A DNA stretch of 64,000 nt from Patescibacteria group bacterium (GTDB taxonomy: Bacteria > Patescibacteriota > Microgenomatia > UBA8517). Below are positions 1 to 56,205 of this stretch, piece by piece. Position numbers and translations under genes: made by a program. The DNA lies in NCBI GenBank assembly GCA_022868165.1, contig JALHYA010000010.1, positions 375 through 64,374 of the forward strand. Direction: 5' to 3'. Below the pieces are notes generated by a model. The model made no database searches. It was not told where the DNA came from and was given only the letters and a program-made list of their open reading frames with translations. Position 1 is the first letter of the stretch. Every line of letters begins with the position of its first letter.

Positions 1-3000
1 GTGCTGACGGTTCCGTACTGGGGAACCCTTTGGAGCATTACTCTCTGGTTCGTAGTTGCGGTTCCCAAGTTGGTATCATCGCTTGCCCCGTTTCCGTAGT
101 ATTTTTTCTTAGCAGTTGTAAAGGTAACCACATTACTTGAGACGGAGTAAATTTTCATAAATTCGTAATTTCCAGTATTTGTACTGTTTGTTGATATTCC
201 TTGTAGGTTACTCATAAGGGCGATGTCTCCCGCGGAAAGACAACCGGTTGCCGGGGTAGAGGAGAGGGTGGCGGTGGTTACCGTATGGCCGTGTATGTTT
301 GTGGTAGTACTAAGAGAGGATATATTGTAGTTGATAGCTTCGGCACAAGTATCACCGGCAGCGGTATTTATAAAGGTATTGAGATTCGTGTTGGTGGTAA
401 AGGTAATATTTCCGTCTCTGCCATCCCCGGTAATTGAGCCTATTGTTAAATACCTTCTTACCCACCCCGTTCCGGGAGTGTTGTTTTGTGCTTTTTGGCT
501 GGTTTCTGTTCCGAATATCCATCCGTCCCCGTCAGCATCCTGTACCCAGAGATTGGTTTCTTTTATCTGCCCTCCGTCTTCAAATCTCCACCAGGCGATG
601 GAGCCGTTTCCGGTGGGGTTGGGTGCATAGTTCATATCTTCGGCAATCTGAGTTACGGAGCGGGCATAGTTGTAGATACGAACATCGTCAAATACTCCTT
701 TTGCATAGGCACCTCCGCACGTTGCCGCTCTTCCAATATTCATGTCACTGGTATTGGTAGGTAAATCCATGTTAAATGAGCCAGGGGTTCCTTCTAATTG
801 GCCGTTTATGTATATATAAACTTTTTGCGCAGCTTTATCATAAACCCCGGCTAGGTGATACCATGTCCCAACCTGGGCCGTAGTGGTTGAAATAGTGCTT
901 GCCCCTTGGCCAGGAGTGTTGGTGGCAACTTGAGAAATGAATCTCTGTGAGCCTTCCACCCCGTTGTCCATATATAAACCCCAAAGGATCCAAGGATCTG
1001 CACAAGGACTAACCTCCTTAGCAATTAATCGAGTCCAGTCACTACCCTTTCCGTTATATTTGAACCATGTTTCAAGAGTCAATGAACCAGTAAGGTTTAG
1101 AGAGGAACTGGCAGGTACGGCTATATAATCACTCGTTCCATTGAAACTTCTGGCTCGAGAGTATTTTCCGGCAACAACTATAGCTCCATTTGCTCTGCCT
1201 TCATTGCTGGTACCTGAATAATCCCTAACATTTCCTCCGCTCCCTTGGGTTAAGTCGTTAATTGCGATTGAACCTCCGGTTTCAATTATTATTGAATAAT
1301 CGTCGTTTCTGACTATTTGCTGGTCTTTTTTAATAGTAAGAGTTTTATATTGTTTTATTGTGATATCACCGTGGTCGGCTCCGTCTATATTGGTTTCCGG
1401 AGATGAAAGAAGGGTATTGGGGAAGTAGCAATTTTCGGTAAGGGCAAAACTTCCTCCAAGAATCGGCTTACAGGAACTCCATGTTGAAGATATATTTGAG
1501 GTTGTTACCGTATAATTTATGGTGATGTCGTCTAATGTGGGAGTTGTTATCCCGTCTCCGGTAAAAACGACTTTGTAGTAGAAGTTTCCTCCCGTCCAAC
1601 CTAGAGGAGCTAGGCTTATGGTGTTATTGTAGCCGGTTGTTAAATTATCAGTTCCACCAACTGCGCCCGATGAGTTATACCAAACAGTTCCGTCGTTGGA
1701 GAAAGCTACCGTTGCCGTCGTGACGCCGGGTAGGGTAGCGAGGTTATATATAAAACTATTGATACTGCTTATATTTTGGATACCAGCGAGAAGGTTCGTC
1801 GAAATTATGGTGGAGGAGGTGAGGTAGGTAAAGTTATTCATATCGGCTTGAATTTCAGCCTGGGTGCGGGCGTAGTTGTAGATGCGAACATCGTCGATTT
1901 GGCCGTTGAAAAATCGACTTGCTGCATTTGGGTCATTCCCGATGATGAGAGTTGCTGTGGTTGAGGTTACAAAATTGCTTCCAGTGGGAGCGGTAGCACC
2001 TACATTTCCATCGACGTAGATTTTTGCAGTCGTACCGTCATAGGTAGCAGCAATGTGATGCCAAGCATTATCTTTTACATTTGTTGAGCTTGCGGGGCTA
2101 ATATATGTAGTGCCATTGTAGAAGTCGGCCCTAACGCCGCCACCAGTATGGATACTCATCTGATAGCCGTTATTTCCACTTACCTTATAAATTATTCCTG
2201 AATAATCATTGGTCGCTGCGGTCTTTATCCAGGCCTCCAACGTAATCGAGCCAGCGATGTTTAAGCTGGTAGACTGAGGTGCTGAAATATAATCGGTTGT
2301 TCCATTAAAACTTCTCGCGTTTACATATTTTCCTGCAACAATATTTGTTGGAGTTGGGTAACGTACAATGACGATGCCGGACCCGCCATCCCCACCCTTG
2401 TTAGTGGCATTATAGTGTGAACCTCCTCCGCCTCCGCCACCCGTATTTGCTCCAGCGTTACCTCCGGGCGTGTTAGTTTGAGCGTTGATAACACCTCCAC
2501 CACCGGGAGAACCATTATTTAAACCGGAACCCCCTGTTGTAGTGCAAACAGCACCACCTCCGCCCCCTCCCGCACCGCCATTTCCTCCACAGCTGGAGTA
2601 ACCACCGCCTCCACCTCCACCGCCCCAGTAGAGACTGGTACCGTTTATTGAGCTTTGAAAACCCGCACCTCCGTTTGCCTGATTATTTCCACTTGCTCCG
2701 ACGGCTCCGGCACCACCTCCACCACCCGAATAATACTGATTTCCTTGATTTCCTCCTGCATATCCTTGTCCGCCAGTTCCGGCTCCTCCAGTTACAGTCC
2801 CTGGGGCTACAGGCTGATTATTGTATCCTGATGCTCCTCCACCAGAACCTCCGGCCGCGCCCGCCGACCCTGGAGTATAGGTATTTGGGGAACTTCCGCC
2901 ACGTCCTCCGCCAACGGCGGTTAGGGTACCAAAGACGGAATCCTGACCATTTGTGGCAGAGAGAATAAATTGGTGGACTGTAGGGTTTCCGTTGGCACTC

Positions 3001-6000
3001 CCAGCCGGTGCACCAAAACCTCCCGCACCTACATTTACCGTGATCGGCGTATTGGCGGTACAAGCATATGTCGCATTGTAAATAACCCCACCGCCTCCAC
3101 CTCCGCCACCCATATCCATACCGCCTCCACCTCCGCCGGCAACTGCAAGGACTTCAACATTACCGCTTGATGTGCAGGTGAAAGACACGTTTTGAACGGG
3201 GGTGATAATGACTTTTCCGGGAGCACCATTGGTTGCGGCGGGTCCACCCGTCCCCGATCTGCCGTTATCTGTATCCGTTGCGTTTGCGGGAGTAGCGCCA
3301 CTTCCCGCGGTTGTTGTGGCATTAGTTACCCCGGTTCCTCCGATATATCCCGATCCACCACCTCCGCCTCCCATATCATTGGCTTCCTGGTAGCCTCCTG
3401 CACCTCCGCCGTACCATCCGCCTCCTCCGCCTCCGCCGTAAGAATAGGGTGAAGCGGGGTGTCCGCCTGTGGGTTGTACTCCGGCAGTACCGGGATAGGT
3501 GGCGCATGATCCTCCTGCGCCCCCGGAAGCCTGCCCACCGCCTTTACCCGCACACGATTGGGTATAGGAGATTCCATCAGCCCCTGTTGAACCTCCACCA
3601 GCACCACCCTGTTGTCCGTTTACTGCGCGGCTTGATCCGCCACCTCCACCACCGCCAGCAGTAAGGTAATCGACGCCACTATAACGAATAGCAGAACGAC
3701 CACCACCTTGACCACCATAACGGCAGTCCGTTCCACCACAAGAAAGACCGCCCCCGCCGTAACTATTGGCGGGATTTGAGACTGATCCATTACCTCCGCC
3801 AGCACCCACCATTACCGTTAGAACTTGGTCGGGTGTAACCGCTAGTGTGCCTGTGGTATATCCGCCACCTCCACCAGGAAAGCCGTAAGTCCAGCCACCG
3901 AGATTACCGCCTCCACCACCTCCACCCCACATTTTGACGGTAATCGACGTTACTCCAGCAGGTACTGTATATGATTGGTCTGCTCCGCTATAGAAGAAAG
4001 CGGACCTGCCACTTGAGGTAAATGTATGGATAGTGTATCCACCAGAATAGGTAATAACTCCGCCGGTGGCGCTTGTTGCATTATATGTCCCGTTATTTCC
4101 GTTTCCCGAAGAATCAGCAACTGAAACTCCTGATGTCTCATCTATTTTCCAGAATCCTGCATTTGGGACAAAAGTGTTTATTTTTACCTGACTGCCGGCG
4201 ACCTGATATCCGGATGAGGAACCTGTATTTATTTTGGATGTGTTATCGTATGGGTCGGTTCCGTTGGTTGAACTGTCGGTAAATCCAGTAACTGTGTAAC
4301 TTAAGCTTATATCATCCAAAACTGGGGTAAAGGAGCCGTTACCAGTAAATGCGATTTTGTAATAGAAGTTTGCCCCGGACCAGCCCAGATTGTGAACGTT
4401 TATTGTATTATTTTCCCCGGTTGTTAAATCGTCTGTTCCGTCCGTTCCTGCAGAGTTATACCAGCCAGTAGTACCATTTTGACTGAATTGGATGGTTGCG
4501 GTTGTTGTCCCTACGGGTTTTGAGGAGAGGTTATATGAAATAGTATCAATGCTGTCTATTCCGGTAAGACCAGTAAGGACATTTGTTGATTGGACAGTGG
4601 AGGATGTAACATAGGTTGGAGTCAGTTGGTTACTTGTCGCTGCGGGATTGGCACTACCCGAGGTTGTAGTAACGTAGGTTGTTGCGATTCTTCCTACCCC
4701 GCCATTTCCTCCGTTTGATGAAGCCGTTCCCCCGGTAGCAGCCACCAGGTTTGTGCCTAGGGTTAAGCTTGCGGCTGCTTCCAGTTTAACGCTACCTCCT
4801 GAACCTCCTCCGCCACCCTGAGCTCCCGTTCCGTTTGCACCGTTAGACTGGATACTGCCGGTAACACTGACTGTATCGGCAGCAACATAGACGATACCAC
4901 CACCTCTGCCTCCTATCCCGGGTGAGACTCCGTATGCCCCAGCTCCGCCGCCAGAACCCAACATCAAGTTGGAAAGATTGGCGACTCCGTATGTTCCACC
5001 TCCACCTCCACCACCACCATTGCCGTAAACAGAATCCGAACCACCATTACCTGAAGTGCCGGTTCCTCCGTCGACACCCGTGCAAGGGGAGCCCCAACAT
5101 ACACCTCCATAACCGAAAGTGCCGTGACCTGCGCCACCGCCGGTTCCGGTTACTCCGCCCCCACCACCACCAGCCCCTCCTTTGGTGGCGGATCCGTTTG
5201 CAATAACGCCGGCATTTCCTCCGGCTCCACCTCCCCCTCCACAATATCCATAACCGCCAACAGTCCACATATTTCCTGATCCCCCTCCTCCTGCTGCTCC
5301 ATTTTCCGGTGCATAAGTATTATCAACCGATCCATGGCCGCCCACACCGCAAAATGATTCTCCTCCTTCTCCTCCTGCCTTTGGGTCTATACCTCTAGTA
5401 TCTCCACCCCGGAAGGCGGTACCAGAAGTGCTTATGGTTCCCGCCACCGTTACCGCCCCTCTGGCCCTAAAGGCTAAAATTCCTCCCTTTCCACCATTCC
5501 AAGAGCCGGCAGAAAGTGTATATCCGCTGTTGACGGTTACATCTACATAATTTGGAACCCGCTGGACGGTTACTCTCTGTCCCGTAAGAGTTGAATTTGA
5601 ATCTGTTGCCCCGTAGATTTTTTGAACATTCGAAGTAAACGTGATTGTATTTCCCGAAACGCTCTGAACAGTCAAGAATTCATAATTTCCGACATTGCCA
5701 TTATTGGTCCCGTCTCCTTGTTGGCTAATTAGCATTACTTCATCTCCGGCTACGATTCCATTGGGGTCGGTGCTGCCCCTGACTTCCATTTCGGTAAAGT
5801 TAAGATAGTCAGAAACGGTCATTAGAAGTCTGACATACTTTCCAGAGGTGGGGGTGATATCCATGGTTGTAGGTCTGCCTGCCTGTGTATTGACAGCTGT
5901 ATAGACGTCAACCTGTTCTCCAGCAAAAGCCCCGGTTGTTGAGACCTGGATTTTGTAGTTGTCAACTCGATCTCGGCAGCAGGTGAACCTGTTCCAGAGC

Positions 6001-6512
6001 TTAATTTGAGTGATGGTTGAGGTAGCCCCAAGGTCAACTTTCCACCAGCCGACCTCACTATTAGTATGGCAAACATTAAGCAGGTCGCCATCGTTACAAA
6101 GATTGGCGCTTAAACCGCTATAAACACTGCTTTGGCTTGATGTTTTATTAAGAGCCAGTAAACTATTCCCTGTAGTTACACTGTTTGCTCCTATTGTGAG
6201 AACATCGTAATTTACTCCGTCTGCATAAGATCTTCCCGCGGCTATTATGTCTGTATTAATATTTTTGTTGGCTGAAATGGTTACCGACTCGTCAGCACCA
6301 TCTCCTGTGTCGAGATTGGCATACTTAAGTTTAAGTTGCCCGTTGGTAAGCTGGTAATTGGAAGAACTTCCGGTATTTATTTTTGAAAAGCCGGCAAACG
6401 AATCAGAAACCGTAGCAGCAAAAACAGGAGTTGGTCCCATACTCAAAGACACGGAAAACATTAAAAGTGCAAGTAGAATGGCTTTTTGAATTTTCTTTAT
6501 TCTTTTTTTCAT
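1..6512 (-). CDS. Giant secreted surface protein, partial. Starts with ATG at 6510-6512 and runs off the left edge with no stop. Signal peptide, discoidin (F5/8 type C)-like domain, Gly-rich repeat region, at least two LamG/concanavalin-A-like domains.
   Basis: Minus-strand frame open from ATG (plus 'cat' ~6510-6512) to position 1. N-term MKKRIKKIQKAILLALLMFSVSLSMG is signal-like. 'VGWWKVDLGATSTITQIKLWNR...YKIQVS' is a discoidin motif. 'FNGQIDDVRIYNYARTQAEI' (RC of ~1890-1960) and 'FDDVRIYNYARS' are LamG motifs. The ORF track omits it only because it lacks a stop in the window. The short ORFs in 1-6500 are antisense or alternate-frame artefacts of the Gly-rich GGN codons. Confidence 0.75.
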   Translation of the reverse strand, partial: MKKRIKKIQKAILLALLMFSVSLSMGPTPVFAATVSDSFAGFSKINTGSSSNYQLTNGQLKLKYANLDTGDGADESVTISANKNINTDIIAAGRSYADGVNYDVLTIGANSVTTGNSLLALNKTSSQSSVYSGLSANLCNDGDLLNVCHTNSEVGWWKVDLGATSTITQIKLWNRFTCCRDRVDNYKIQVSTTGAFAGEQVDVYTAVNTQAGRPTTMDITPTSGKYVRLLMTVSDYLNFTEMEVRGSTDPNGIVAGDEVMLISQQGDGTNNGNVGNYEFLTVQSVSGNTITFTSNVQKIYGATDSNSTLTGQRVTVQRVPNYVDVTVNSGYTLSAGSWNGGKGGILAFRARGAVTVAGTISTSGTAFRGGDTRGIDPKAGGEGGESFCGVGGHGSVDNTYAPENGAAGGGGSGNMWTVGGYGYCGGGGGAGGNAGVIANGSATKGGAGGGGGGVTGTGGGAGHGTFGYGGVCWGSPCTGVDGGTGTSGNGGSDSVYGNGGGGGGGGTYGVANLSNLMLGSGGGAGAYGVSPGIGGRGGGIVYVAADTVSVTGSIQSNGANGTGAQGGGGGSGGSVKLEAAASLTLGTNLVAATGGTASSNGGNGGVGRIATTYVTTTSGSANPAATSNQLTPTYVTSSTVQSTNVLTGLTGIDSIDTISYNLSSKPVGTTTATIQFSQNGTTGWYNSAGTDGTDDLTTGENNTINVHNLGWSGANFYYKIAFTGNGSFTPVLDDISLSYTVTGFTDSSTNGTDPYDNTSKINTGSSSGYQVAGSQVKINTFVPNAGFWKIDETSGVSVADSSGNGNNGTYNATSATGGVITYSGGYTIHTFTSSGRSAFFYSGADQSYTVPAGVTSITVKMWGGGGGGGNLGGWTYGFPGGGGGYTTGTLAVTPDQVLTVMVGAGGGNGSVSNPANSYGGGGLSCGGTDCRYGGQGGGRSAIRYSGVDYLTAGGGGGGGSSRAVNGQQGGAGGGSTGADGISYTQSCAGKGGGQASGGAGGSCATYPGTAGVQPTGGHPASPYSYGGGGGGGWYGGGAGGYQEANDMGGGGGGSGYIGGTGVTNATTTAGSGATPANATDTDNGRSGTGGPAATNGAPGKVIITPVQNVSFTCTSSGNVEVLAVAGGGGGGMDMGGGGGGGGVIYNATYACTANTPITVNVGAGGFGAPAGSANGNPTVHQFILSATNGQDSVFGTLTAVGGGRGGSSPNTYTPGSAGAAGGSGGGASGYNNQPVAPGTVTGGAGTGGQGYAGGNQGNQYYSGGGGGAGAVGASGNNQANGGAGFQSSINGTSLYWGGGGGGGGYSSCGGNGGAGGGGGGAVCTTTGGSGLNNGSPGGGGVINAQTNTPGGNAGANTGGGGGGGSHYNATNKGGDGGSGIVIVRYPTPTNIVAGKYVNARSFNGTTDYISAPQSTSLNIAGSITLEAWIKTAATNDYSGIIYKVSGNNGYQMSIHTGGGVRADFYNGTTYISPASSTNVKDNAWHHIAATYDGTTAKIYVDGNVGATAPTGSNFVTSTTATLIIGNDPNAASRFFNGQIDDVRIYNYARTQAEIQADMNNFTYLTSSTIISTNLLAGIQNISSINSFIYNLATLPGVTTATVAFSNDGTVWYNSSGAVGGTDNLTTGYNNTISLAPLGWTGGNFYYKVVFTGDGITTPTLDDITINYTVTTSNISSTWSSCKPILGGSFALTENCYFPNTLLSSPETNIDGADHGDITIKQYKTLTIKKDQQIVRNDDYSIIIETGGSIAINDLTQGSGGNVRDYSGTSNEGRANGAIVVAGKYSRARSFNGTSDYIAVPASSSLNLTGSLTLETWFKYNGKGSDWTRLIAKEVSPCADPWILWGLYMDNGVEGSQRFISQVATNTPGQGASTISTTTAQVGTWYHLAGVYDKAAQKVYIYINGQLEGTPGSFNMDLPTNTSDMNIGRAATCGGAYAKGVFDDVRIYNYARSVTQIAEDMNYAPNPTGNGSIAWWRFEDGGQIKETNLWVQDADGDGWIFGTETSQKAQNNTPGTGWVRRYLTIGSITGDGRDGNITFTTNTNLNTFINTAAGDTCAEAINYNISSLSTTTNIHGHTVTTATLSSTPATGCLSAGDIALMSNLQGISTNSTNTGNYEFMKIYSVSSNVVTFTTAKKKYYGNGASDDTNLGTATTNQRVMLQRVPQYGTVS

Positions 6513-7042
6513 CTTAAGGTGACTGTTGCGCTTTGAACGAGATTTTGTTCGTTTTTGACCTTCACCGTTACTCTGTAAATGTAGTTATACGAGTTTTCTA
6601 CTTTCCAAGTTCCTTTCCATTCCCCGTCGGTAGGAGTCCCGGATGATAATTGCAGGGGATAGGTGGTATCTTTGTAGTCGTCCGTGTGAAGAACAACTTC
6701 GACTCCCTTAATAGGACTTGTGTAGTTTGCCTTGACGATTATGGATTGGTTTGAACCCACTTCTGGATCTTCCGGGTCAAGTATCACCTCTGAAATTGTC
6801 GGAAGGCCTTGTACTCCTCCGCTAGTCCTATATAGCTGGGTTCCGTGGCCGATCGGGGGTGGGGTAGTGGTATAGGCGGACCAGATATTTTGTATAGGAG
6901 TTGGCGTGGGAAAGAGATTGGCGAGCTTGCCCGTGCGTAGCATATAGAAATAGACGCCCCCCAAAACCGCGGCGATAATGGCAACGATGATGAATATCCA
7001 GAAAATTAAAGGCGGCCGCTTTGTAGGCAGGTTGTTGTCCAT
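6509..7042 (-). CDS. Membrane-anchored protein: N-terminal TM helix plus an extracytoplasmic beta-rich domain.
   Basis: 177-aa ORF. Hydrophobic segment LIFWIFIIVAIIAAVLGGVYFYML. Its TGA stop overlaps the downstream ATG (ATGA), giving translational coupling to the partial giant gene. Confidence 0.6.
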   Translation of the reverse strand: MDNNLPTKRPPLIFWIFIIVAIIAAVLGGVYFYMLRTGKLANLFPTPTPIQNIWSAYTTTPPPIGHGTQLYRTSGGVQGLPTISEVILDPEDPEVGSNQSIIVKANYTSPIKGVEVVLHTDDYKDTTYPLQLSSGTPTDGEWKGTWKVENSYNYIYRVTVKVKNEQNLVQSATVTLR

Positions 7043-7112
7043 AACAAATTTAGTCCTCTTAAGGGCTGTTAATCTATTAAAGATAGTATGGGGGAGGAAG
7101 TCAAGCTCATTT

Positions 7113-7572
7113 TTAATCTACAAATCCGACAAATCTGCAAATCTACAAATCAATTGCAAATGTTAGAATTAATAAATGAATAAATATTCAAATACGGATA
7201 AAGATATTCACGCACGAATTTATAAATTTACAATAGAATGCTTTTGGGAAGTGGTAAGAAAGATTCCCAAATCTACAGAAAATATTCCGATTATAAGCCA
7301 GGTTTCTTCTTCTTTGACCTCTATCGGAGCTAATGATCAAGAGGCCGATGCTGCAAACTCGAAGAAGGATTTTATTGCAAAATATATGATTGTTAAGAAA
7401 GAAACTAAGGAGACTAAATATTGGCTTAGCTTTATTAAAGATTCTGCTCTAATTAAAGAGAATATTATTCAGCCCCACATAGACGAATGCCAGGAAATTC
7501 TTCTAATAGTAAGTAAAATTATCGAAAATACGAGGCGCTAATTTCACCATTAAACCATTTATTTGTAGATTA
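7113..7572. repeat. Cassette of about 460 bp bounded by perfect 12-bp inverted repeats, TAATCTACAAAT (7113-7124, plus a second direct copy ~7139-7150) and ATTTGTAGATTA (7561-7572). It encloses the four-helix-bundle gene.
   Basis: Direct reading of the sequence. The right repeat overlaps the arsR stop codon. Confidence 0.45.
7176..7541 (+). CDS. Four-helix-bundle protein (TIGR02436 family, formerly '23S rRNA intervening-sequence protein').
   Basis: 121 aa. 'SSLTSIGANDQEADAANSKKDFIAKYMIVKKETKETKYWLSFIKDSALI' matches the family core (SIGANIAEG...SKKDFI...ETEYWL). It is the only plus-strand gene inside a minus-strand operon. Confidence 0.7.
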   Translation: MNKYSNTDKDIHARIYKFTIECFWEVVRKIPKSTENIPIISQVSSSLTSIGANDQEADAANSKKDFIAKYMIVKKETKETKYWLSFIKDSALIKENIIQPHIDECQEILLIVSKIIENTRR

Positions 7573-7869
7573 GATGATGCCTTTAGCTCTGAGAGCTTCA
7601 ATAACATTGCAAGGTTCAACAATTCCGGGGTCAATGCATTTGTAAAATATCTTTTGGCCCTCTCGTCTGTGAGTAACAAGCTTGTTTAGCCTAAGGAGAG
7701 CCAGATGTTGTGAGAGATTGGCCTTGCGGATTCCTACTTCTTTTGCAATATCGTCAACCGAGCGCTCGCGGTCCTTAATACAATTCAGTACTTCCAACCG
7801 TTTGCCATTGGAAAGCACCTTATATATATCCGCATACATTTCATACATCTGTTTCGTCTGTTTGGTCAT
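7570..7869 (-). CDS. ArsR/SmtB-family transcriptional regulator. Likely start is the internal Met; the track ORF extends to 7908.
   Basis: 'GKRLEVLNCIKDRERSVDDIAKEVGIRKANLSQHLALLRLNKLVTHRREGQKIFY' is the winged-HTH ArsR signature. Confidence 0.7.
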   Translation of the reverse strand: MTKQTKQMYEMYADIYKVLSNGKRLEVLNCIKDRERSVDDIAKEVGIRKANLSQHLALLRLNKLVTHRREGQKIFYKCIDPGIVEPCNVIEALRAKGII

Positions 7870-7968
7870 TTGAAACCATATTAAAGAACTGCAAGAAAGC
7901 CGTGTCAAGTGGTATTTTAGCTTCGAGCTTATATTATTAGAAATTTTTGGGGTACGATGAAATTTCGG

Positions 7969-10900
7969 TTACTGCTTCACATCTATCACCCACCAATTGA
8001 AGGTCACATCAACATTAATTGGATTGGAAAAGCCCACGGTAAAGTAGCCCGCCCCCTTACTTTTTACATAAAGAACATTGTTGAGCGTAGAGGATGTTGG
8101 TGTTACATATACTAATGTATAGTCTGATATAGAAGGATTCTTTATGGTAATCTCCGAGACTCCTGCGTTGATTATTGCCTGTCCCGCGGTTGCGTTAGTT
8201 GTTATTGTCCCATTGATGTCAGCGGAGGCAGTTGCCGCTTGTACAGCCAAGATAAACTTATCGGCGGAAACGCTGTTAAATGTAGCCGAGCCGGAGGCGT
8301 CGATGGAAGCGGCCACGGGATTGTTGATAGACCGAACGGTCAGGCCGGAAGATTCGACTACGCCTGCAACATAGAGATTTCCTTCAATTTGAACGTCTCC
8401 GTTTGTTAAAACTTTGACTTTGCCGGCCATAATTTCGACAGGAGCCATTGCTAAAGATTGCAAAGAAAGAGGAGCGCTTAAGGAGTTTACAGTATTCAGT
8501 ATTCCGTATTGGGTATTTTGGGATTGAAAAACCAGGTCGGTACCGACAGAGATAGAAGTAGAAACAGAAAGCGAGTTTATCGCTGCCTGGTCTGTCACGA
8601 AGAGATTTTGGATATTAGCAATTGCCGACGACCCCGTCGCGGTGTTAGCGTTCCAAGTTGCGGCTTGGGCCAGAAGGTTTTGGTCTTGCTCGACTTGATG
8701 CAGGAGATTTTGGATATCATCGAGCGTGGTTGATTTAATATCATCGGCGTATAAAGTGCCGGCAATACTGGCACTACTTGTAACTTGTAACTTGTCACTA
8801 GTAACTTGCCCAGAGAAGCTGGCGTTCCCGGCAGTATCCACCGATGCCACTGCGCTTCCCGAAGCATTTTGTATTACCAATTGACCGGAGTCGGTACCTG
8901 CCCCTCCGATTTGTACGGCTACATCCGTCTGGTCAGGGAGCGGTGATATCAAACGGGTTCGAACTGTATCAATATCTGCAAGTGGGGAGATAATTTTATT
9001 AGCTGTTAGCAAGTTTGAGGTTACTTCCTGAACTTGAATAGCTCCAGCCAGAATATTTCCAGCTATCAGATTTCCGAAAGCACCCAACTCGTCGATTATT
9101 TGTCCGGCTTTTGTCCATATACTGTATACAATATTTTGTATACCGTATGCCTGCTGAGATACAATTTCAAAATCTGCTAAAGAAGGAATTACCGGCGGTT
9201 TAACATCCCCGTTTGGATTAACAGTCAAATTTTCATCCTTGATATCAAAACCGGTTGCGCTCGGGTTATCGTTGAGATTTGTCCAGGTCGTATAGTCAAA
9301 TCGTGGGGCGGTGAGCCTATATGAAACTGTTGTTGGCCTGGCAGTATATATAGATAGCAAGTAGTTTCGAGTATCGACATCGTACCAAGCCCTCGTATTG
9401 CCTGCGGGGGAGAGGAGAACAACCATTTTGCCCATGTTATTTTTAAGATTTGTGGTTTTTGAAAATAGCCACAAATCCGAGCCGTTCTGTGCGTCTTTGA
9501 AGTCAATTGAATGACGATATCCGACACCCGGCACAAATTCGTCTGTCGAAACATTTCCGGTAGTTTCCTCTTTGACTCCTGTCATTCCGGAAAGATAAGT
9601 AGCGTAGCGCGTGCCGCCGATATTATAGACAGGGTCAATAGTTCCTATATCAACTTTGCCGGTTCCACCGCCGATCGTAAGCATAGTTCCGGAGCCGGTT
9701 GCTGTTATGTTTCCGTTATTTGCAATTGTGAATTTGGTGCTGCCCGAAAACGAGGCTGTAAATATATCTCCGCCGGCTTGCTGATCGACAATTAATGCTG
9801 CTTGCCCGACGTTTCCAGTGTTAATAGGATTTGTAACCATCCAATTTCCGGCCGTCAGCTCGTGGGGAGTTGTTTTTTCATTGGCCGGAAAAATAATCGT
9901 TCCTGTGCCGGTATTGTCGGCTATTTGGGAAATCCCACCGCCGACTCCATCCGCACTATCGAGAAAAAGAGTGCCTCTGAATTCGGTATCGCCTGAGAAT
10001 ATTACCCAGTCTGTAGTGGAACCCCCAAAATGGTCGGGGATTGCACTGCCGAATCTAGAATAAGCCTGACTGGTGGCGGGGATTGTGCCCGGGGTCCAAG
10101 CGGCGCCAATCTGCAAAAATCCGGTTGCCGTTAAATCTCCGGCTTTGGAGACTACCATTTTTGTTACGGAAGAAGCAGAAGCGGTTAATATGTCTTGGCT
10201 TTCGGGCTGATTGAAAATTGCCAGAGCCTTGCCGGTAAGCGCACCGTCGTTGGTAACATAAAGTTTGGAAATAATGTCTGCCGTTGTCGTTGTGCCGATT
10301 CCGACTTGATAATCCGCATTGGTAGTATAAATAAAAGGATTAGATAGAGTCCAACCTGTTGCAGCACCTGCAGAAATACAATCTACCCAAGAGCCGCCCT
10401 GGTAGCAGCGGAATTTGGGCGTTCCCGATGAATTGTAGTAAACTGCTCCTGCCGTTCCTGCAGGGTCTCCCGCATCATTTTTAATATCCAAAGCTAGAAG
10501 GTCCGGATTGCTCGAACCCGCTCCGTCGCCGATTTGAATATGCCCCGTGTCTGCTCCGAATGACTCTAGAAAGATGTTGCCGGTTGTAAGGCCGCCTAGG
10601 GTTAAGCTTTGGTTGGCTGTTGTGGCCAGGTTTCCGTCGGCCGTTAGATAAGTTGCTCCTGCGGCCCCGGCAGAGATAGAAGCTGTCGGTGGGCTTGCTA
10701 AATCTACGTTTATGAAGGCAAACTTGGCCGAATCCGTAGAATTCCCGCCGATTAGAACATCTTCGGTAAGATTTTTGGGATAAATTACTCCGCCGTTGGT
10801 GGGAGCGGTTCCTTCCGCCCATAGACCGCTTGTAGTACAGCCGGCCCCCGAAGTATCGCAGACCTGGTTTGCGCCTTGATAAATCAATTGACCATGTATT

Positions 10901-17747: not shown

Positions 17748-18251
17748 CTAATGGTTAATAGCTGATGGGTGATTTTCGACCCATGAAATGAATTGTTTTA
17801 TATCGGAAAGATAGCTTTTGATAGTATTATTGGAAACCTTTTCTTGCTTTAGATATCGCTCAAATTCGTTTAATAAGGGATCGGATTCGTAAGAATCTCC
17901 GGTAATGTTAGACATTCCTTCCATAAAATCTGAATCTATAATTTGAGTGCCAACCAAAAAACGGGAGAGATTGCGCAGGGTAGAAAGGCGTCTGTTGGCC
18001 GTGAGTTTGGCAACTTTATTATCGAGAAGATATTTTTTGTATTCGCCCGCAATATTTTTGGAAAGAAAGGGAATAGATTCGGTTAAATTTTCTGCCTCCG
18101 AACCCAAAGAACGAATTCGCAAGAGAAGCCAAGCGGTAAAATGGGTGATATCCGACTTGTAAAATTTTATTGTGTTTGTGGAAACGCCTGACTCATCCAA
18201 ATGGGATAAGAACAAACTTATGATTTTATCGGCAAAACTGCTATCGTCCAT
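17748..18251 (-). CDS. Protein built from tyrosine-recombinase N-terminal (SAM-like/core-binding) domain repeats, with no catalytic domain.
   Basis: 167 aa. 'FADKIISLFLSHLDESGVSTNTIKFYKSDITHFTAWL', 'RLSTLRNLSRFLVGTQIIDSDF' and 'LLNEFERYLKQEKVSNNTIKSYLSDIKQFISWV' fit the Phage_integrase_N/SAM-like pattern. The stop is 2 nt before the start of the giant gene. Confidence 0.6.
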   Translation of the reverse strand: MDDSSFADKIISLFLSHLDESGVSTNTIKFYKSDITHFTAWLLLRIRSLGSEAENLTESIPFLSKNIAGEYKKYLLDNKVAKLTANRRLSTLRNLSRFLVGTQIIDSDFMEGMSNITGDSYESDPLLNEFERYLKQEKVSNNTIKSYLSDIKQFISWVENHPSAINH

Positions 18252-27965: not shown

Positions 27966-28095
27966 TACAGGGGCTTACAGCGAAATTATAGCAGGATTCA
28001 AGAAAACTCTCGACTTTCAGTCGGGAGATGAATTGAACGCTGATATGTCATTCTCCTTTAGAGGAAACCCCGCTCTTCAGAGCGGGCAGGATGTC
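27966..28095 (-). promoter_or_regulatory. Conserved module of about 120 nt upstream of a tRNA gene. Extended -10 'TGCTATAAT' lies immediately 5' of tRNA-Arg, plus two hairpins. Hairpin 2 also works as a terminator for the upstream PEGA gene: GCCCGCTC-TGAA-GAGCGGG then a T-rich run.
   Basis: About 75 percent identical to 59697-59815, with compensatory stem changes. The core 'CTTGAATsCTGCTATAAT' also occurs at 34337-34359 on the plus strand. Confidence 0.45.
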
Positions 28096-29382: not shown

Positions 29383-29519
29383 AGGATGTTATAGATAGGT
29401 AAAATTATACCAGAAAGTCCTCTTGAAAGTCGGTTATTTAGTATATAATGCCTTGAGAACTTGAAGCTGCCCTTTCCGGACAGGTTTTTATATCTTAATA
29501 TCTTAAATCTATATCAATT

Positions 29520-54603: not shown

Positions 54604-56205
54604 TTGATGAAACTATTCAATTTAGACTTAGTTAAGGGTGAGTTTTACTCTGAACTAAATCCTGAAATTACATTTGAAACGCTTACTCAAGGAGGTAGGC
54701 AGATTATTACTTGGAAGTGTTCTAAGGGCGATGATCATATTTGGGAAGCAAGCTTAAATCAGAGAACAAGCGGAAATAAACTAAGAGGTTGTCCAGTTTG
54801 TGCTGGGAAAAAAGTAGTAACAAGCAATTCTCTTTTAACAACTAATCCTGAAATCGCAAAGGAATGGAATTATGAAAGAAATAAAACCATTACTCCTTCA
54901 ACCATAACTTATGGTAGCAATAAGAAGGTGTGGTGGCAGTGCTTAGTTAATGAATCGCATGTTTGGTTAGCCTCACCAAAGCAAAGAGTTAACAATAATA
55001 CTTGTCCGCATTGCGACTCGTTACAGGTTAAATATCCAGATATTGCAAGAGAATGGCATCCGACTAAAAATAACTCGTTAAGACCGCAAGATATTGCTTC
55101 TTCATCCCATACCAAAGTTTGGTGGAAATGTGAGAAAGGAGTAGATCATGTGTGGCTATCATCGCCTAATACACGAGTTTCTAATAAAAGTGGTTGTCCC
55201 ATCTGTTCAGGATATAAAGTTGTAAAGAGTAATTGTTTAGCAATAACACATCCAGAACTGTCATCTCAGTGGGATTATGTTAAAAACGCGAATAATCTTA
55301 CTCCCGAAAATGTACATGCAGGTAGTCATAAAAAGGTGTGGTGGAGATGTCCTAAGGGGGATGATCATAATTGGGAATCTGTAGTTAAAACACGAGCAAA
55401 ACAAGGAGTTGGATGTCCGATCTGTAGTGGTCGAAAAGTAAGCCTAAGTAATTCATTGGCCACAAAAGAACCTGTCATTGCCTCTCTTTGGCATCCTACA
55501 AAGAATGAACCATTGAACGCTTACCAAGTAACTCCGTATTCAGGTCAATTGGTTTGGTGGAAGTGTCCAGAAGGTGAAGATCATGAGTGGAAAAGTACTG
55601 TTGCTAACCTTGTAAATGGAAGCTCTTGTCCTGTGTGCATGAATAGAAAAATTACAAAGAATAATAATCTTTTTGCTCTATTCCCTGATTTGAAAGATGA
55701 GTGGGATTTCGAAAAGAATAAGGATGTCAACCCAGTCACATTATCTGCTGGTAGCAGGATGAAGGTGTGGTGGGTTTGTAAACGAGATCCTGAACATATG
55801 TGGTTCTCTACAATCAAAGACAGAACAGCAAAAGAAAGTGGCTGTCCTTACTGCTCCATAAAACTCAATGTCTCAGAGCTGAAAATGTTAGGAATAATCA
55901 AACAACTATTTGAAGGAAAAGAAATACTATATAGATATAAACCAAAATGGCTAAACAGAATGGAACTGGATGTGTATGTCCCTGAACTGAAATTAGCTTT
56001 CGAATATCAAGGAGCTCAGCATATCAGGCCGATTGATTTCTTTGGAGGTGAGATGGTTTATATCGAACAGGTAAAAAGGGATCAATTAAAAAAGAATATC
56101 TGCCACGAAAGAAATGTAACGCTTCTATATTGTTACTTTGACGAAAAATTGAGCTTAGGTTTGATTAAATCTAAAATAGATGATTCAGGCATTACTCTTA
56201 TTTGA
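54604..56205 (+). CDS. Protein with about 8 tandem zinc-ribbon repeats (DUF4379-like treble-clef, 'WW.C..G..H.W.......G..CP.C') and a C-terminal Vsr/DUF559-like PD-(D/E)xK endonuclease domain.
   Basis: Repeats such as 'KVWWKCEKGVDHVWLSSPNTRVSNKSGCPICSG'. C-terminal 'MELDVYVPELKLAFEYQGAQH' matches the DUF559 core (D..lP...laiE.DG.qH). Confidence 0.65.
   Translation: MMKLFNLDLVKGEFYSELNPEITFETLTQGGRQIITWKCSKGDDHIWEASLNQRTSGNKLRGCPVCAGKKVVTSNSLLTTNPEIAKEWNYERNKTITPSTITYGSNKKVWWQCLVNESHVWLASPKQRVNNNTCPHCDSLQVKYPDIAREWHPTKNNSLRPQDIASSSHTKVWWKCEKGVDHVWLSSPNTRVSNKSGCPICSGYKVVKSNCLAITHPELSSQWDYVKNANNLTPENVHAGSHKKVWWRCPKGDDHNWESVVKTRAKQGVGCPICSGRKVSLSNSLATKEPVIASLWHPTKNEPLNAYQVTPYSGQLVWWKCPEGEDHEWKSTVANLVNGSSCPVCMNRKITKNNNLFALFPDLKDEWDFEKNKDVNPVTLSAGSRMKVWWVCKRDPEHMWFSTIKDRTAKESGCPYCSIKLNVSELKMLGIIKQLFEGKEILYRYKPKWLNRMELDVYVPELKLAFEYQGAQHIRPIDFFGGEMVYIEQVKRDQLKKNICHERNVTLLYCYFDEKLSLGLIKSKIDDSGITLI

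What the first reader, a model, noticed from the sequence alone, without database searches (positions are those of the whole stretch)
7106..7572. Four-helix-bundle (TIGR02436, '23S rRNA IVS protein') gene inside a cassette of about 460 bp bounded by perfect 12-bp terminal inverted repeats, inserted on the opposite strand of the giant-protein operon.
TAATCTACAAAT occurs at 7113-7124 with a second direct copy (AATCTACAAATC) at 7139-7150. Its exact inverse ATTTGTAGATTA is at 7561-7572 and overlaps the arsR stop codon. The enclosed gene is the only plus-strand ORF in an 18-kb minus-strand block. This protein family was first noticed inside 23S rRNA intervening sequences and often looks like a hitch-hiking selfish gene. 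TIRs of this quality suggest a miniature mobile cassette. The alternative is a pair of operator sites for the adjacent ArsR regulator.
Basis: seen in the sequence. Interest (0 to 1): 0.5.

Follow-up and report, generated by a model that had tools for sequence, protein, structure and literature searches.

The report
Repeat-bracketed four-helix-bundle gene cassette
The small gene is a real, self-contained 459-bp cassette whose ends are mirror-image arrays of short tandem repeats, and the same design brackets this orphan protein family in at least five bacterial phyla, linking it to equally unexplained repeats.

Summary
TAATCTACAAAT (7114-7125) and its exact inverse (7561-7572, overlapping the arsR stop) enclose a PF05635/TIGR02436 gene (7176-7541).

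The 12-bp pair is only the visible tip. The left end is an array of four 8-9-bp units (CTACAAAT, CCGACAAAT, CTGCAAAT, CTACAAAT). The right end is the inverse array, eroded here to one unit; the closest relative keeps three.

In 68 of 73 related Patescibacteria loci the gene has inverse arrays on both sides, usually 4-5 units. They lie in unrelated contexts, in opposite orientations at the same site, next to empty sites, and as gene-less inverse pairs.

ArsR is adjacent only in this lineage, so the operator idea fails. The gene is under purifying selection (dN/dS about 0.1). No transposase, target duplication, reverse transcriptase or rRNA is present.

Eleven of 12 family genes on cyanobacterial, Bacteroidota, Chloroflexota and Bacillota plasmids are bracketed by inverse 7-bp arrays of the type known as orphan heptamer repeats.

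My best reading is a non-rRNA counterpart of the 23S rRNA intervening sequence. The arrays would be its ends, probably bound by the pentameric protein. How it moves is unproven.

The parts
7114..7572 (+). Whole cassette (459 bp): left array, promoter-like motif, four-helix-bundle gene, spacer and right array. GC is about 0.29-0.35 against about 0.44-0.54 in the flanks.
   Evidence: The ends read TAAT...ATTA, as in most related loci, whose median element length is 480 bp. The same unit is found in other contexts and orientations.
7114..7151 (+). Left arm. TAAT is followed by four tandem units: CTACAAAT (7118-7125), CCGACAAAT (7126-7134), CTGCAAAT (7135-7142) and CTACAAAT (7143-7150). A degenerate fifth unit, CAATTGCAAAT, follows at 7151-7161.
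   Evidence: family D1. This is the only array of 3 or more units in the 64-kb window, against 0.12 in shuffles. The 62 nt upstream of the ATG are 93.5% identical to L003, although CDS third positions are only 45% identical.
7161..7169 (+). TGTTAGAAT, an extended -10-like motif (TGnTAnAAT) ending 6 nt before the ATG. There is no Shine-Dalgarno sequence. This suggests the cassette has its own promoter and a leaderless or near-leaderless mRNA (inferred).
   Evidence: The consensus scan lists TCTACA-16-TAGAAT with TG. TGnTAnnnT lies within 30 nt of the ATG in 21 of 73 loci, at a distance of 6 nt in 16 of them, against 3 of 73 in a control window. SD-like motifs occur in 3 of 73 loci. The motif could also be just two degenerate repeat units.
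7176..7541 (+). Four-helix-bundle protein gene (121 aa; PF05635 / TIGR02436, the 'S23p / 23S rRNA IVS protein / Avd' family).
   Evidence: Pfam 57.3 bits, TIGR02436 70.3 bits. PDB 2RLD matches at E = 2.3e-9. The AF2 model has pLDDT 94.4 and four helices; Foldseek gives TM 0.80-0.89 to 2RLD, about 0.8 to 2GSC and 0.7-0.8 to the Avd of a diversity-generating retroelement. dN/dS is 0.075 against L001, with a median of 0.11.
7542..7560 (+). Spacer between the stop codon and the right arm (AATTTCACCATTAAACCATTT). Its reverse complement, AAATGGTTTAATGG, loosely mirrors the inner left-end motif AAATGTTAGAAT.
   Evidence: It is conserved in L001 and L003. The gene-less derivative L062 5769-5887 keeps both inner motifs.
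7561..7572 (-). Right arm, reduced to one inverse unit (ATTTGTAG plus ATTA). It is the exact inverse of 7114-7125. Its last three bases are the arsR stop codon.
   Evidence: (I4). The syntenic relative L001 has three inverse units here (ATTTGTAGATTAAGTTATTTGTATATTTGTAGATTG) and its arsR stop lies beyond the arm. The window copy is therefore about 30 bp shorter.

Best explanation
The feature is one copy of a discrete cassette of about 480 bp. It carries a single gene for a PF05635 four-helix-bundle protein, bracketed by two mirror-image arrays of short tandem repeats. In this bacterium (a Patescibacteria / Microgenomates-type genome) the units are 8-9 bp and usually number 4-5 per arm. It is the non-rRNA counterpart of the ORF-bearing 23S rRNA intervening sequence.

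**Shown**
- Gene and arrays travel together.
- The arrays are almost confined to these genes.
- The gene is under purifying selection, and the left arm is conserved far beyond synonymous sites.
- The cassette is present or absent at orthologous sites and occurs in either orientation at the same site.
- It leaves gene-less inverse array pairs.
- It lacks a transposase, a target-site duplication, a reverse transcriptase and an rRNA context.
- Genes of the same family in four other phyla are bracketed by inverse 7-bp arrays.

**Inferred mechanism**
- The arrays are the cassette's cis-acting ends.
- They are probably binding sites for the encoded protein. Its solved relatives are homopentamers, and its one characterised relative (DGR Avd) binds nucleic acid. 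That would give roughly one unit per subunit and one ring per arm.
- Because the two ends mirror each other, the cassette can be inserted, flipped or lost by recombination at the arrays without classical transposition.
- In transcripts that read through the cassette, the two arms can also pair into a terminal stem, as in the rRNA version.

In the window the cassette sits antisense inside a giant-surface-protein operon, between arsR and a small membrane-protein gene. It is intact apart from an eroded right arm.
For: **Family**.

**Architecture**
- Upstream forward and downstream inverse unit arrays appear in loci L001-L086.
- In 68 of 73 loci the left 120 nt and the reverse complement of the right 120 nt share 5 or more 7-mers (mean 13.6). 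The direct comparison gives 2.5 and control windows 1.57.
- Local complementarity of a locus's own arms averages 17.5, against 12.6 across loci and 8.7 when shuffled.
- The modal number of units per arm is 4, the maximum is 6, and the modal spacing is 8 bp.

**Specific link to the gene**
- The window has one array in 64 kb.
- In 552 kb of related loci, 105 of 127 arrays lie within 250 bp of a family gene.

**Behaviour as a unit**
- Syntenic flanks with the cassette reversed: window/L001 versus L003, and L011 versus L029 (both flanks). L025 versus L031, and L028 versus L074/L086, show it on one flank.
- Cassettes lie on either side of the same gene.
- Empty sites L089/L091, and L088 with a solo unit.
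- Gene-less inverse pairs: L027 4899-4960, L062 5769-5887, L012, L070 and L009.
- Some MAGs hold several copies.

**Constraint**
- dN/dS is 0.075 and the median is 0.11.
- Window versus L003: 93.5% identity upstream against 45% at third codon positions.
- Element GC is 30.8% against 41.8% in the flanks, and it is lower in 74 of 74 loci.

**Generality**
- 11 of 12 plasmid loci in Cyanobacteriota, Bacteroidota, Chloroflexota and Bacillota are bracketed. Examples are Nostoc (AATTCAA)x4.4, 31/31 complementary, and (TAATTCG)x4.7.
- Control: 1 of 51 CDS in 50 kb of a Nostoc plasmid is bracketed, and that CDS is the family gene.

**Literature**
- The rRNA intervening sequences are 428-444 nt, carry an S23p ORF and have a 28-bp terminal stem cut by RNase III. 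An old hypothesis held that the ORF serves mobility (PMC4990558).
- The same protein family occurs in CPR rRNA insertions (PMC11270868).
Against: - No biochemical activity is known for the non-DGR members of this family. The protein has no recognisable catalytic motif and is only mildly basic (pI 8.5; family median 9.1).
- Copies are old. Synonymous sites are saturated between most pairs, and no near-identical copies at different sites were seen.
- One clade keeps the cassette stably upstream of mreB. Long residence plus occasional recombination could explain much of the pattern without dedicated mobility.
- I found no syntenic pair of 'gene-less array pair versus full cassette'.
- The L014 evidence for both orientations in one population may be an assembly artefact.
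- The promoter assignment is only a consensus match, found in 21 of 73 loci.
- Protein-array binding is an inference from stoichiometry and analogy alone.
- The cross-phylum sample is 12 plasmid loci.
Confidence: 0.55

Rival explanations
1. RNA-level device only. The two arms exist to pair in transcripts that read through the cassette. They form a stem that RNase III cuts, as in 23S rRNA intervening sequences. This releases the small mRNA and limits damage to the host operon. On this reading the arrays have no role at the DNA level, and the cassette spreads only by ordinary recombination of its flanks.
For: - The known rRNA versions work this way (PMC4990558).
- The terminal stem appears in the MFE and centroid folds of 7105-7585.
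- No terminator-like site lies in or around the cassette.
- In the mreB clade a host promoter (TTGGCA-17-TGATAGAAT) lies outside the left arm, so both arms are transcribed together in the mreB leader.
- The cyanobacterial arms are perfectly complementary.
- 29 of 67 cassettes are co-oriented with both neighbours.
Against: - In Patescibacteria the order of units is not mirrored between the arms. Only 12-20 contiguous pairs form, interrupted by mismatches.
- The window's stem is 12 bp.
- The overall fold is no better than shuffles (z = 0.10).
- If the promoter-like motif is real, the gene's own mRNA lacks the left arm.
- This reading does not explain gene-less pairs, the limit of 4-5 units, or arrays in both orientations at one site.
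Confidence: 0.22
2. Cis-regulatory repeats of the gene itself. The upstream array is an operator, an UP element or a translation leader, as proposed for TAACTGA heptamers placed just before start codons. The downstream array is a second operator or a roadblock. The cassette is then an ordinary autoregulated gene that is often transferred.
For: - Arrays abut the start codon and SD motifs are rare, seen in 3 of 73 loci. This matches MacGregor 2015 (PMC4679880).
- The left arm and promoter are more conserved than synonymous sites.
- The copy number of units differs between close relatives, as for phase-variable simple repeats.
Against: - The inverse copy downstream of the stop codon is as regular as the upstream one.
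- Gene-less inverse pairs persist without anything to regulate.
- The whole unit, arms included, changes orientation and site.
Confidence: 0.12
3. Programmed invertible switch (inverton). The inverted arms are sites for a recombinase that flips the segment. Flipping redirects an outward-reading promoter and so changes expression of the neighbouring giant surface proteins.
For: - Opposite orientations occur at the same site in four independent comparisons.
- The L014 contig carries both junction types, joined at a shared unit.
- No terminator follows the gene.
- The window copy sits inside a giant-surface-protein operon.
Against: - No invertase or recombinase was found. The 30 ORFs scanned elsewhere in the window (21.3-64 kb) gave none, and the five ORFs scanned next to the cassette gave none. 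The 167-aa neighbour at 17748-18251 has only integrase N-terminal SAM-like domains.
- The orientation differences are between species whose flanks are 66-93% identical, not shown within one population.
- The cassette occurs beside unrelated housekeeping genes and in four other phyla.
Confidence: 0.07
4. Operator sites for the adjacent ArsR regulator.
For: The right repeat overlaps the arsR stop codon, and repeats lie on both sides of a neighbouring gene.
Against: - An ArsR homologue (tblastn E <= 1e-5) is present only in the window (L007 is a contig of the same DNA) and in its close relative L001/L002. It is absent from all other loci that carry the same repeats.
- L003 has the same arms at the same site without arsR.
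- arsR has its own promoter on its far side.
Confidence: 0.01
5. Accessory protein (Avd) of a diversity-generating retroelement that targets the giant proteins.
For: The fold and family are shared with Avd (TM 0.7-0.8 to 4DWL/8UB7; PMC10053308). DGRs are common in this group of bacteria (my own knowledge).
Against: - No reverse transcriptase was found among the 30 ORFs scanned further along the window or the five scanned next to the cassette.
- There is no template/variable repeat pair. The long repeats in the window are internal repeats of the giant protein, and no inverted pair of 45 nt or more exists.
- The cassette recurs beside unrelated housekeeping genes.
Confidence: 0.02

Closest known systems
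ORF-bearing intervening sequences (IVS) of 23S rRNA genes (Leptospira, Coxiella burnetii, Brucella; also insertions in CPR rRNA genes)
   Same: Similar size (428-444 nt in Coxiella against 459 here). A single ORF of the same protein family (PF05635 / S23p). Terminal inverted repeats that can form a stem. GC lower than the host. A patchy distribution that suggests horizontal spread (PMC4990558, PMC11270868).
   Different: This cassette is not in an rRNA gene. No rRNA signatures occur in any of 87 loci, and Rfam finds nothing at the cassette. It sits antisense in a protein-coding operon. Its arms are arrays of short tandem units rather than one unique stem, and the perfect stem here is 12 bp against 28 bp. 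The ORF is under purifying selection, whereas the Coxiella ORF is reported to be decaying.
REP / REPIN sequences and their RAYT genes (REPtrons)
   Same: A single small gene is bracketed by inverted copies of a short repeat that also occurs elsewhere as gene-less inverted doublets. Copies are old and often at fixed sites. There is no target duplication. (The RAYT side of this comparison is my own knowledge.)
   Different: The protein is a four-helix bundle, not an HUH/Y1 transposase. The repeats are tandem arrays of 7-9-bp units, not single 20-40-bp palindromes. In Patescibacteria the gene-less copies are few.
Orphan heptamer tandem repeats: cyanobacterial STRR (my recollection of Mazel et al. 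1990), TAACTGA repeats of Beggiatoaceae, Cyanobacteria and Bacteroidetes (PMC4679880), and GGGAATC / GGGGATT repeats of Xanthomonas and Nostoc (PMC4692102)
   Same: Short tandem units of 7 bp (8-9 bp here), 2-16 copies, intergenic, often ending just before a start codon that lacks an RBS, and often in convergent inverted pairs. The Planktothrix arms are (AATCCCC)n and (AATCGTA)n, and the Chondrinema arms contain TAACTGA-like units. An AAATC/AATC core is shared with the window units.
   Different: Those papers do not connect the repeats with any protein family and do not mention S23p or four-helix-bundle genes. In the window genome the array is unique to the cassette rather than dispersed.
Avd, the accessory variability determinant of diversity-generating retroelements
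   Same: Same fold and superfamily (PMC10053308). It is a homopentamer that binds nucleic acid and is the only characterised member of the family.
   Different: No reverse transcriptase or template/variable repeats are present here. Avd genes are not known to me to be bracketed by tandem-repeat arrays.
MITEs and foldback-type transposons
   Same: Small size, terminal inverted repeats and internally deleted gene-less derivatives (L062). Foldback elements also have arms built of short tandem repeats (my own knowledge).
   Different: There is no target-site duplication, no transposase anywhere nearby and no bursts of near-identical copies.

Membership tests
PF05635 / TIGR02436 four-helix-bundle ('23S rRNA IVS protein', S23p, Avd-like) proteins | Profile match above the curated cut-offs | tested here: met
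   PF05635 57.3 bits (cut-off 33.8). TIGR02436 70.3 bits (cut-off 24).
PF05635 / TIGR02436 four-helix-bundle ('23S rRNA IVS protein', S23p, Avd-like) proteins | Up-and-down four-helix bundle resembling solved members | tested here: met
   AF2 pLDDT 94.4, helices at 11-25, 37-58, 63-89 and 95-120. Foldseek gives TM 0.80-0.89 to 2RLD and about 0.8 to 2GSC. Sequence match to 2RLD at E = 2.3e-9.
PF05635 / TIGR02436 four-helix-bundle ('23S rRNA IVS protein', S23p, Avd-like) proteins | Conserved S-x3-N-x2-E motif (the GxxRxxxSxxxNxxE motif quoted in PMC3936711) | tested here: met
   S49-x3-N53-x2-E56 is invariant in 34 aligned relatives. The upstream G/R part of the motif is not kept.
PF05635 / TIGR02436 four-helix-bundle ('23S rRNA IVS protein', S23p, Avd-like) proteins | Homopentameric ring | not testable with these tools
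   Only a monomer was modelled. The pentamer is inferred from 2RLD (five chains), 2GSC and Avd.
23S rRNA intervening sequence (IVS) element | Inserted in a helix of the 23S (or 16S) rRNA gene | tested here: not met
   The window holds no rRNA; Rfam at gathering threshold finds only 6 tRNAs. Nothing is found at 6400-8400. No universal rRNA motif occurs in 87 loci.
23S rRNA intervening sequence (IVS) element | About 400-760 nt with terminal inverted repeats enclosing an S23p-family ORF | tested here: met
   459 bp, a 12-bp perfect inverted repeat and longer imperfect arrays, enclosing a PF05635 ORF.
23S rRNA intervening sequence (IVS) element | Excised from the transcript by RNase III at the terminal stem | not testable with these tools
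   The terminal stem is present in the predicted fold, but the whole fold is no better than shuffles.
Classical IS / MITE-type DNA transposon | Target-site duplication flanking the inverted repeats | tested here: not met
   No direct repeat was seen outside the TAAT...ATTA ends in the 48 loci where both arm boundaries could be called.
Classical IS / MITE-type DNA transposon | Transposase, in the element or elsewhere, matching the ends | tested here: not met
   The cassette encodes only the 121-aa protein. No transposase or recombinase domain was found in the 30 ORFs scanned elsewhere in the window or the five scanned next to the cassette. The rest of the genome was not available.
Classical IS / MITE-type DNA transposon | Several near-identical copies within a genome | tested here: inconclusive
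   The window holds one copy. Some MAGs hold 2-3 diverged copies. No complete genome was examined.
DGR (Avd accessory gene) | Reverse transcriptase and a template/variable repeat pair nearby | tested here: not met
Inverton (phase-variable invertible segment) | Inverted repeats, with both orientations present in one population | tested here: inconclusive
   Opposite orientations occur between related genomes. One contig (L014) holds both junction types, but this may be an assembly artefact. No reads were available.
Inverton (phase-variable invertible segment) | Dedicated invertase encoded nearby | tested here: not met
   None was found in the window.
ArsR/SmtB operator | The repeat co-occurs with the regulator gene across relatives | tested here: not met
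   ArsR is present only in the window lineage, while the repeats follow the four-helix-bundle gene everywhere.
STRR-type short tandem (heptamer) repeats | Tandem units of 7 bp, intergenic, often in convergent pairs | tested here: inconclusive
   The window units are 8-9 bp; across Patescibacteria the modal spacing is 8, with 7 also seen. True 7-bp arrays bracket family genes in four other phyla. The equivalence is by resemblance.

The most novel reading that the evidence does not exclude
PF05635 four-helix-bundle proteins and short tandem-repeat arrays form one system found across bacteria, comparable to RAYT/REPIN. The arrays would include STRR, TAACTGA and GGGAATC-type heptamers and the 8-9-mers seen here. 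The pentameric protein would bind an array at roughly one unit per subunit. The gene bracketed by inverse arrays would be the autonomous unit. The gene-less inverse array pairs scattered through cyanobacterial, Xanthomonas, Beggiatoa and Bacteroidota genomes would be its non-autonomous derivatives. The 23S rRNA intervening sequence would be just one landing place of the same element. This would give a function both to a large orphan protein family (7381 clusters at 50% identity) and to repeats that have been unexplained, to my knowledge, since 1990.
Probability: 0.3. Interest if true: 0.9.

Novelty: new variant of a known kind. Interest (0 to 1): 0.68.

Why it matters
Genes of this family have been noted for thirty years as 'hitch-hikers'. 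They turn up inside 23S rRNA genes, between cas1 and cas2, and between subunits of restriction, efflux and other operons. No function or means of spread is known.

This work shows that the gene comes as a defined cassette whose ends are mirror-image arrays of short tandem repeats. The rule holds from Patescibacteria to Cyanobacteria, Bacteroidota, Chloroflexota and Bacillota. That gives the family a testable cis-element and a candidate ligand.

It also ties the family to the heptamer repeats of cyanobacteria, Xanthomonas and Beggiatoaceae, whose origin and function are also open. None of the papers I could search makes this link.

For annotation, it explains an odd antisense gene inside a giant-protein operon. 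It also warns that such cassettes can flip, and can confuse assemblies.

Tried and rejected
- **Metagenome scan for empty sites.** A scan of metagenome contigs with the 177-aa neighbour found only the contig already known. Empty sites came instead from a protein search plus contig look-ups.
- **Target-site duplications.** None at the array boundaries.
- **Gene-less pair versus full cassette at the same site.** No such syntenic pair in my sample.
- **RNA families.** Rfam found nothing at the cassette and only tRNAs in the whole window.
- **RNA structure.** The fold of the whole cassette is not more stable than shuffles (z = 0.10), although the terminal stem is predicted.
- **Defence-system models.** PADLOC gave no hit for the protein.
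- **DGR.** No RT and no TR/VR pair.
- **rRNA context.** No universal rRNA motifs in 87 loci.
- **Own right arm as best partner of the left arm.** This is true for only 5 of 73 loci, because many loci share the same unit vocabulary. Locus-specific covariation of the arms is therefore weak, and I do not claim it.
- **Internal AATCTACAG at 7270-7278.** It lies in coding sequence and is not conserved at the DNA level in L001, so I treat it as chance.
- **ArsR operator.** Rejected.
- **Literature.** Searches combining the protein family names with heptamer/STRR terms returned no paper that links them. Subscription-only papers could not be searched.
Full report
**1. What is in the window**

- TAATCTACAAAT lies at 7114-7125, one base to the right of the stated position.
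- AATCTACAAATC recurs at 7140-7151, again one base to the right.
- The exact inverse ATTTGTAGATTA lies at 7561-7572. Its last three bases are the stop codon of the minus-strand arsR gene (7570-7908).

The enclosed ORF (7176-7541, 121 aa) matches PF05635 (57.3 bits) and TIGR02436 (70.3 bits). It matches the solved family member 2RLD at E = 2.3e-9. It is predicted with high confidence (pLDDT 94.4) to be a four-helix bundle. That model superposes on 2RLD (TM 0.80-0.89), on Xanthomonas Xcc0516 (about 0.8) and on the Avd protein of diversity-generating retroelements (0.7-0.8).

It is the only plus-strand gene in a minus-strand block. The block consists of:
- a giant protein, open for 2172 aa up to the window edge;
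- a 177-aa membrane protein;
- ArsR;
- a 3258-aa giant protein;
- a small protein with integrase N-terminal SAM-like domains.

The segment is AT-rich, with GC 0.29-0.35 against 0.44-0.54 on either side.

Taken alone, a perfect 12-bp inverted repeat in this AT-rich segment is only modestly unlikely, at about 2% of simulations.

**2. The '12-bp TIR' is the tip of two inverse arrays of short tandem repeats**

Upstream of the gene the sequence reads TAAT-CTACAAAT-CCGACAAAT-CTGCAAAT-CTACAAAT. These are four head-to-tail units of 8-9 bp, each with a variable 4-5 nt part and a constant C(A/C)AAT end (7114-7150). This is the only array of that kind in the 64-kb window, against 0.12 expected.

Downstream, the window keeps just one inverse unit. 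Its closest relative is L001/L002, a syntenic metagenome contig whose protein is 95% identical. There the right side reads ATTTGTAGATTAAGTTATTTGTATATTTGTAGATTG, and the arsR stop codon lies just beyond it. The window copy therefore has a right arm about 30 bp shorter.

**3. Gene and arrays go together**

The protein has hundreds of close relatives (67-95% identity) in Patescibacteria of the Microgenomates type: Gottesman-, Roizman-, Woese-, Levy-, Curtiss- and Shapirobacteria. I collected 79 genome loci plus metagenome loci. In almost all of them the gene is preceded by forward units and followed by inverse units.

| Measure | Result |
|---|---|
| Loci where the 120 nt before the start and the reverse complement of the 120 nt after the stop share 5 or more 7-mers | 68 of 73 (mean 13.6) |
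| Same comparison without reverse complement | mean 2.5 |
| Same geometry in control windows | mean 1.57 |
| Arrays of 3 or more units within 250 bp of a family gene, in 552 kb of loci | 105 of 127 |
| Units per arm | mode 4, then 5, maximum 6 |
| Spacing between units | mode 8 bp |
| Element length | median 480 bp |

The elements begin with TAAT and end with ATTA, and no target-site duplication is seen.

The unit 'vocabulary' (CTAC-, CCGAC-, ACTAC-, AAGC-, AAAC-, AACC-, TTC-) is shared among loci and between the two arms of a locus. The order of units is not mirrored. Contiguous complementarity is therefore usually only 12-25 bp.

More distant paralogues in the same genomes (31-48% identity) have arms built of other units, such as ATTCAGA, AATACCAAT and 7-bp NNNCAAT.

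**4. The cassette behaves as a unit that has been gained, lost and turned round**

*(a) Same site, opposite orientation.*
- L003 is syntenic with the window and L001. The flanks of L001 and L003 are up to 93% identical. L003 carries the cassette between the first giant gene and the membrane-protein promoter, but reversed and without arsR.
- L011 and L029 show the same thing with both flanks matched.
- L025 versus L031, and L028 versus L074/L086, show it on one flank.

*(b) Empty sites.* More distant relatives of this operon (L089/L090, L091/L092) run directly from the giant gene's stop codon to the membrane-protein promoter (AAGAGCCTTGACT...). L088 does so too, except for a single leftover unit, TTTGCAGATTA.

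*(c) Different sites.* Most close homologues lie beside unrelated genes. Some lie on either side of the same gene, for example next to tRNA-Ala(CGC) in L025 and L039.

*(d) Gene-less derivatives.* Inverse array pairs without a gene occur at L027 4899-4960, L012, L070 and L009. L062 5769-5887 still keeps both inner end motifs.

*(e) Arrays inside coding sequence.* Single arrays also occur within ORFs (L010, and a penicillin-binding-protein-like gene in L049/L072).

*(f) Both junctions on one contig.* L014 carries both junction types, joined at a shared CCGACAAAT unit. This could reflect a population with both orientations, or it could be an assembly artefact.

Some evidence points against high mobility.
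- Synonymous sites are saturated between most copies, and no near-identical copies at different sites were seen.
- A whole clade keeps the cassette in one place, between the mreB promoter and mreB.
- Among 67 loci, 29 cassettes are co-oriented with both neighbours and 9 oppose both, as in the window.

**5. Both the gene and the arm are constrained**

dN/dS is 0.075 between the window and L001, and the median over 35 usable pairs is 0.11. The gene is therefore functional, unlike the decaying ORF reported for the Coxiella intervening sequence (PMC4990558).

Between the window and L003 the coding sequence is 75% identical, with third codon positions at 45%. The 62 nt upstream (left arm plus promoter-like motif) are 93.5% identical. 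Either the arm sequence itself is under strong selection, or the cargo has been exchanged between conserved arms.

Element GC is lower than flank GC in 74 of 74 loci (30.8% against 41.8%), yet it tracks host GC (r = 0.69).

Directly before the ATG the close subfamily carries TGnTAnAAT ending 6 nt upstream, and almost never a Shine-Dalgarno motif. I read this as an internal promoter giving a leaderless mRNA. It is only a consensus match and could be two degenerate units.

**6. Rival readings tested**

- **ArsR operators.** An ArsR homologue is adjacent only in the window lineage. The repeats follow the four-helix-bundle gene everywhere else. Rejected.
- **DGR accessory gene.** No reverse transcriptase was found among the 30 ORFs scanned further along the window or the five scanned next to the cassette, and there is no template/variable repeat pair. 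Rejected.
- **Classical transposon.** No transposase, no target duplication. Not met.
- **rRNA intervening sequence proper.** No rRNA in the window or in any of 87 loci. Not met, although the anatomy is the same.
- **RNA stem only.** The terminal stem is predicted, but the fold as a whole is unremarkable and the unit order is not mirrored. On the other hand, both arms are co-transcribed in the mreB clade, and the cyanobacterial arms are perfectly complementary. This stays a serious, non-exclusive rival.
- **Programmed inverton.** Orientation differences exist, but no invertase was found and no within-population evidence could be obtained.

**7. The same design in other phyla**

A translated search of plasmids found family genes in Cyanobacteriota, Bacteroidota, Chloroflexota and Bacillota. 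They typically sit in the gaps inside operons:
- between cas2 and cas1, on the opposite strand;
- between the two subunits of an RND pump;
- between drmD and pglX;
- between hsdS and hsdR;
- between DUF1156 and a Swt1-HEPN gene.

In 11 of the 12 loci examined the gene is bracketed by inverse arrays of 7-bp tandem repeats. Examples:
- (AATTCAA)x4.4 against (AATTTTG)x4.6, 31 of 31 bases complementary, in Nostoc flagelliforme;
- (TAATTCG)x4.7 abutting both the start and the stop codon in Nostoc sp. C052;
- (AATCCCC)n and (AATCGTA)n in Planktothrix;
- CAGTNNN / TAACTGA-like units in Chondrinema;
- (CCAGTTA)x6.4 against (ACTGGTC)x12.6 in Euhalothece.

The twelfth locus (Bernardetia) has the arrays in direct orientation.

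As a control I examined a 50-kb stretch of a Nostoc plasmid. It holds 19 period-7 arrays and five gene-less inverse pairs. Only one of its 51 annotated genes is bracketed by inverse arrays, and that gene is the family member.

**8. Relation to what is known**

Three literatures touch this cassette.
- The ORF-bearing 23S rRNA intervening sequences: a same-family ORF, terminal inverted repeats, RNase III excision, and a 1993 suggestion that the ORF serves mobility (PMC4990558). The family is also found in CPR rRNA insertions (PMC11270868).
- The DGR accessory protein Avd, which shares the superfamily (PMC10053308).
- The unexplained heptamer tandem repeats: TAACTGA in Beggiatoaceae, Cyanobacteria and Bacteroidetes, placed mostly just before start codons that lack a ribosome-binding site (PMC4679880); GGGAATC and GGGGATT in Xanthomonas and Nostoc, often in convergent pairs (PMC4692102); and the cyanobacterial STRR sequences, which I recall from Mazel et al. 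1990.

Neither of the two heptamer papers that I read mentions this protein family. Searches combining the two vocabularies found no paper that does. Subscription-only literature could not be searched, so I cannot claim the link is unpublished.

In design, the closest analogue is the RAYT/REPIN arrangement: a single gene bracketed by the inverted repeats that also occur gene-less. The protein fold and the repeat type are entirely different.

**9. Verdict**

The finding is a real and intact cassette, apart from its eroded right arm. The ends are inverse tandem-repeat arrays, not a simple TIR, and movement is documented only over evolutionary time and without any classical transposition signature.

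My best-supported explanation (confidence about 0.55) has three parts:
- The arrays are the cassette's cis-acting ends.
- They are probably bound by the encoded pentameric nucleic-acid-binding protein.
- They allow insertion, inversion and loss by recombination at mirror-image ends, with arm pairing in read-through transcripts as a second, IVS-like property.

**Shown:** the architecture, its specific link to the gene, selective constraint, presence/absence and orientation changes, gene-less derivatives, and cross-phylum recurrence.

**Inferred:** protein-array binding, the recombination mechanism, the internal promoter, and any effect on the neighbouring giant-protein genes.

The family is large, with 7381 clusters at 50% identity at E <= 1e-3. 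A rule that ties it to a repeat class would therefore have wide reach.

Noticed in passing
L014 (JAMDAL010000044.1) 1977-4451, especially 2604-2702 and 3159-3257: A 1203-bp tandem duplication (99.9% identical) of flank plus cassette. The two copies are joined through a 99-bp perfect inverted copy of the left arm and left flank, with the junction at a shared CCGACAAAT unit. This is either a real rearrangement or an assembly of a population that holds both orientations.
   Followed up: partly
L049 8233-8258, L072 7532-7566, L010 2283-2316: Arrays of the same units (ACTACCAAT, CCGACCAAT and others) lie inside coding sequence. In a penicillin-binding-protein-like gene they encode an N/T-rich insert (NTTNTTN...) whose copy number differs between orthologues.
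   Followed up: partly
window 29494-29519 (just before the mreB start at 29520): Three unit-like 8-10-mers ending in AAT (ATATCTTAAT ATCTTAAAT CTATATCAAT) sit directly before the mreB ATG, with no obvious Shine-Dalgarno motif. In a Levybacteria-type clade a complete cassette occupies the mreB leader, between the promoter and the gene. This could be a remnant or a landing site.
   Followed up: partly
window 17748-18251 (-) and the N-terminus of the giant protein at 17745 downward: The 167-aa ORF consists only of phage-integrase N-terminal SAM-like domains and has no catalytic domain. By eye, the first ~50 residues of the adjacent 3258-aa giant protein (…KRKMASLNKFFGWAHNKGHIKENPL) look like the same kind of domain.
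   Followed up: no
window 27984-28036 and 59702-59754: A 53-nt repeat (79% identical) lies immediately upstream, on the minus strand, of two tRNA clusters (Arg/Pro, and a Thr gene). It reads like a shared promoter, with TTGAAT...TATAAT on the minus strand, plus a small hairpin.
   Followed up: no
L003 5012-5419 and L093 166-558: Related giant-protein operons carry further small helical genes in their intergenic gaps. L003 has a second PF05635 gene of 135 aa, with only a right-hand array (ATTTGCG ATTTGCC ATTTTAG). L093 has a 130-aa ORF without a Pfam hit at the position equivalent to the window cassette.
   Followed up: partly
L098 (Chlorohelix plasmid NZ_CP128402.1) 1068-1179 and 1565-1676: A 112-nt direct repeat (97% identical) flanks the four-helix-bundle gene. 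Each copy contains a forward and a reverse heptamer array. This is a different and more complex end structure than in the window.
   Followed up: no
L094 (Anabaena cylindrica pANACY.01) and L100 (Nostoc sp. TCL26-01 plasmid): In both, the four-helix-bundle gene lies between cas2 and cas1 on the opposite strand. This matches the old report of this family inside cas loci (PMC3936711) and resembles the antisense placement in the window.
   Followed up: no
window 54604-56205 (+): A 533-aa protein made of six DUF4379 treble-clef zinc-finger repeats (E = 6e-103). Three internal 47-nt repeats at 54890, 55298 and 55727 reflect this.
   Followed up: no
loci L009, L012, L015 and others (record titles): Many MAG records that carry these Patescibacteria-type cassettes are titled 'uncultured Gammaproteobacteria bacterium', and one 'Methanosarcinales archaeon'. 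This looks like placeholder or wrong taxonomy in the deposited records.
   Followed up: no
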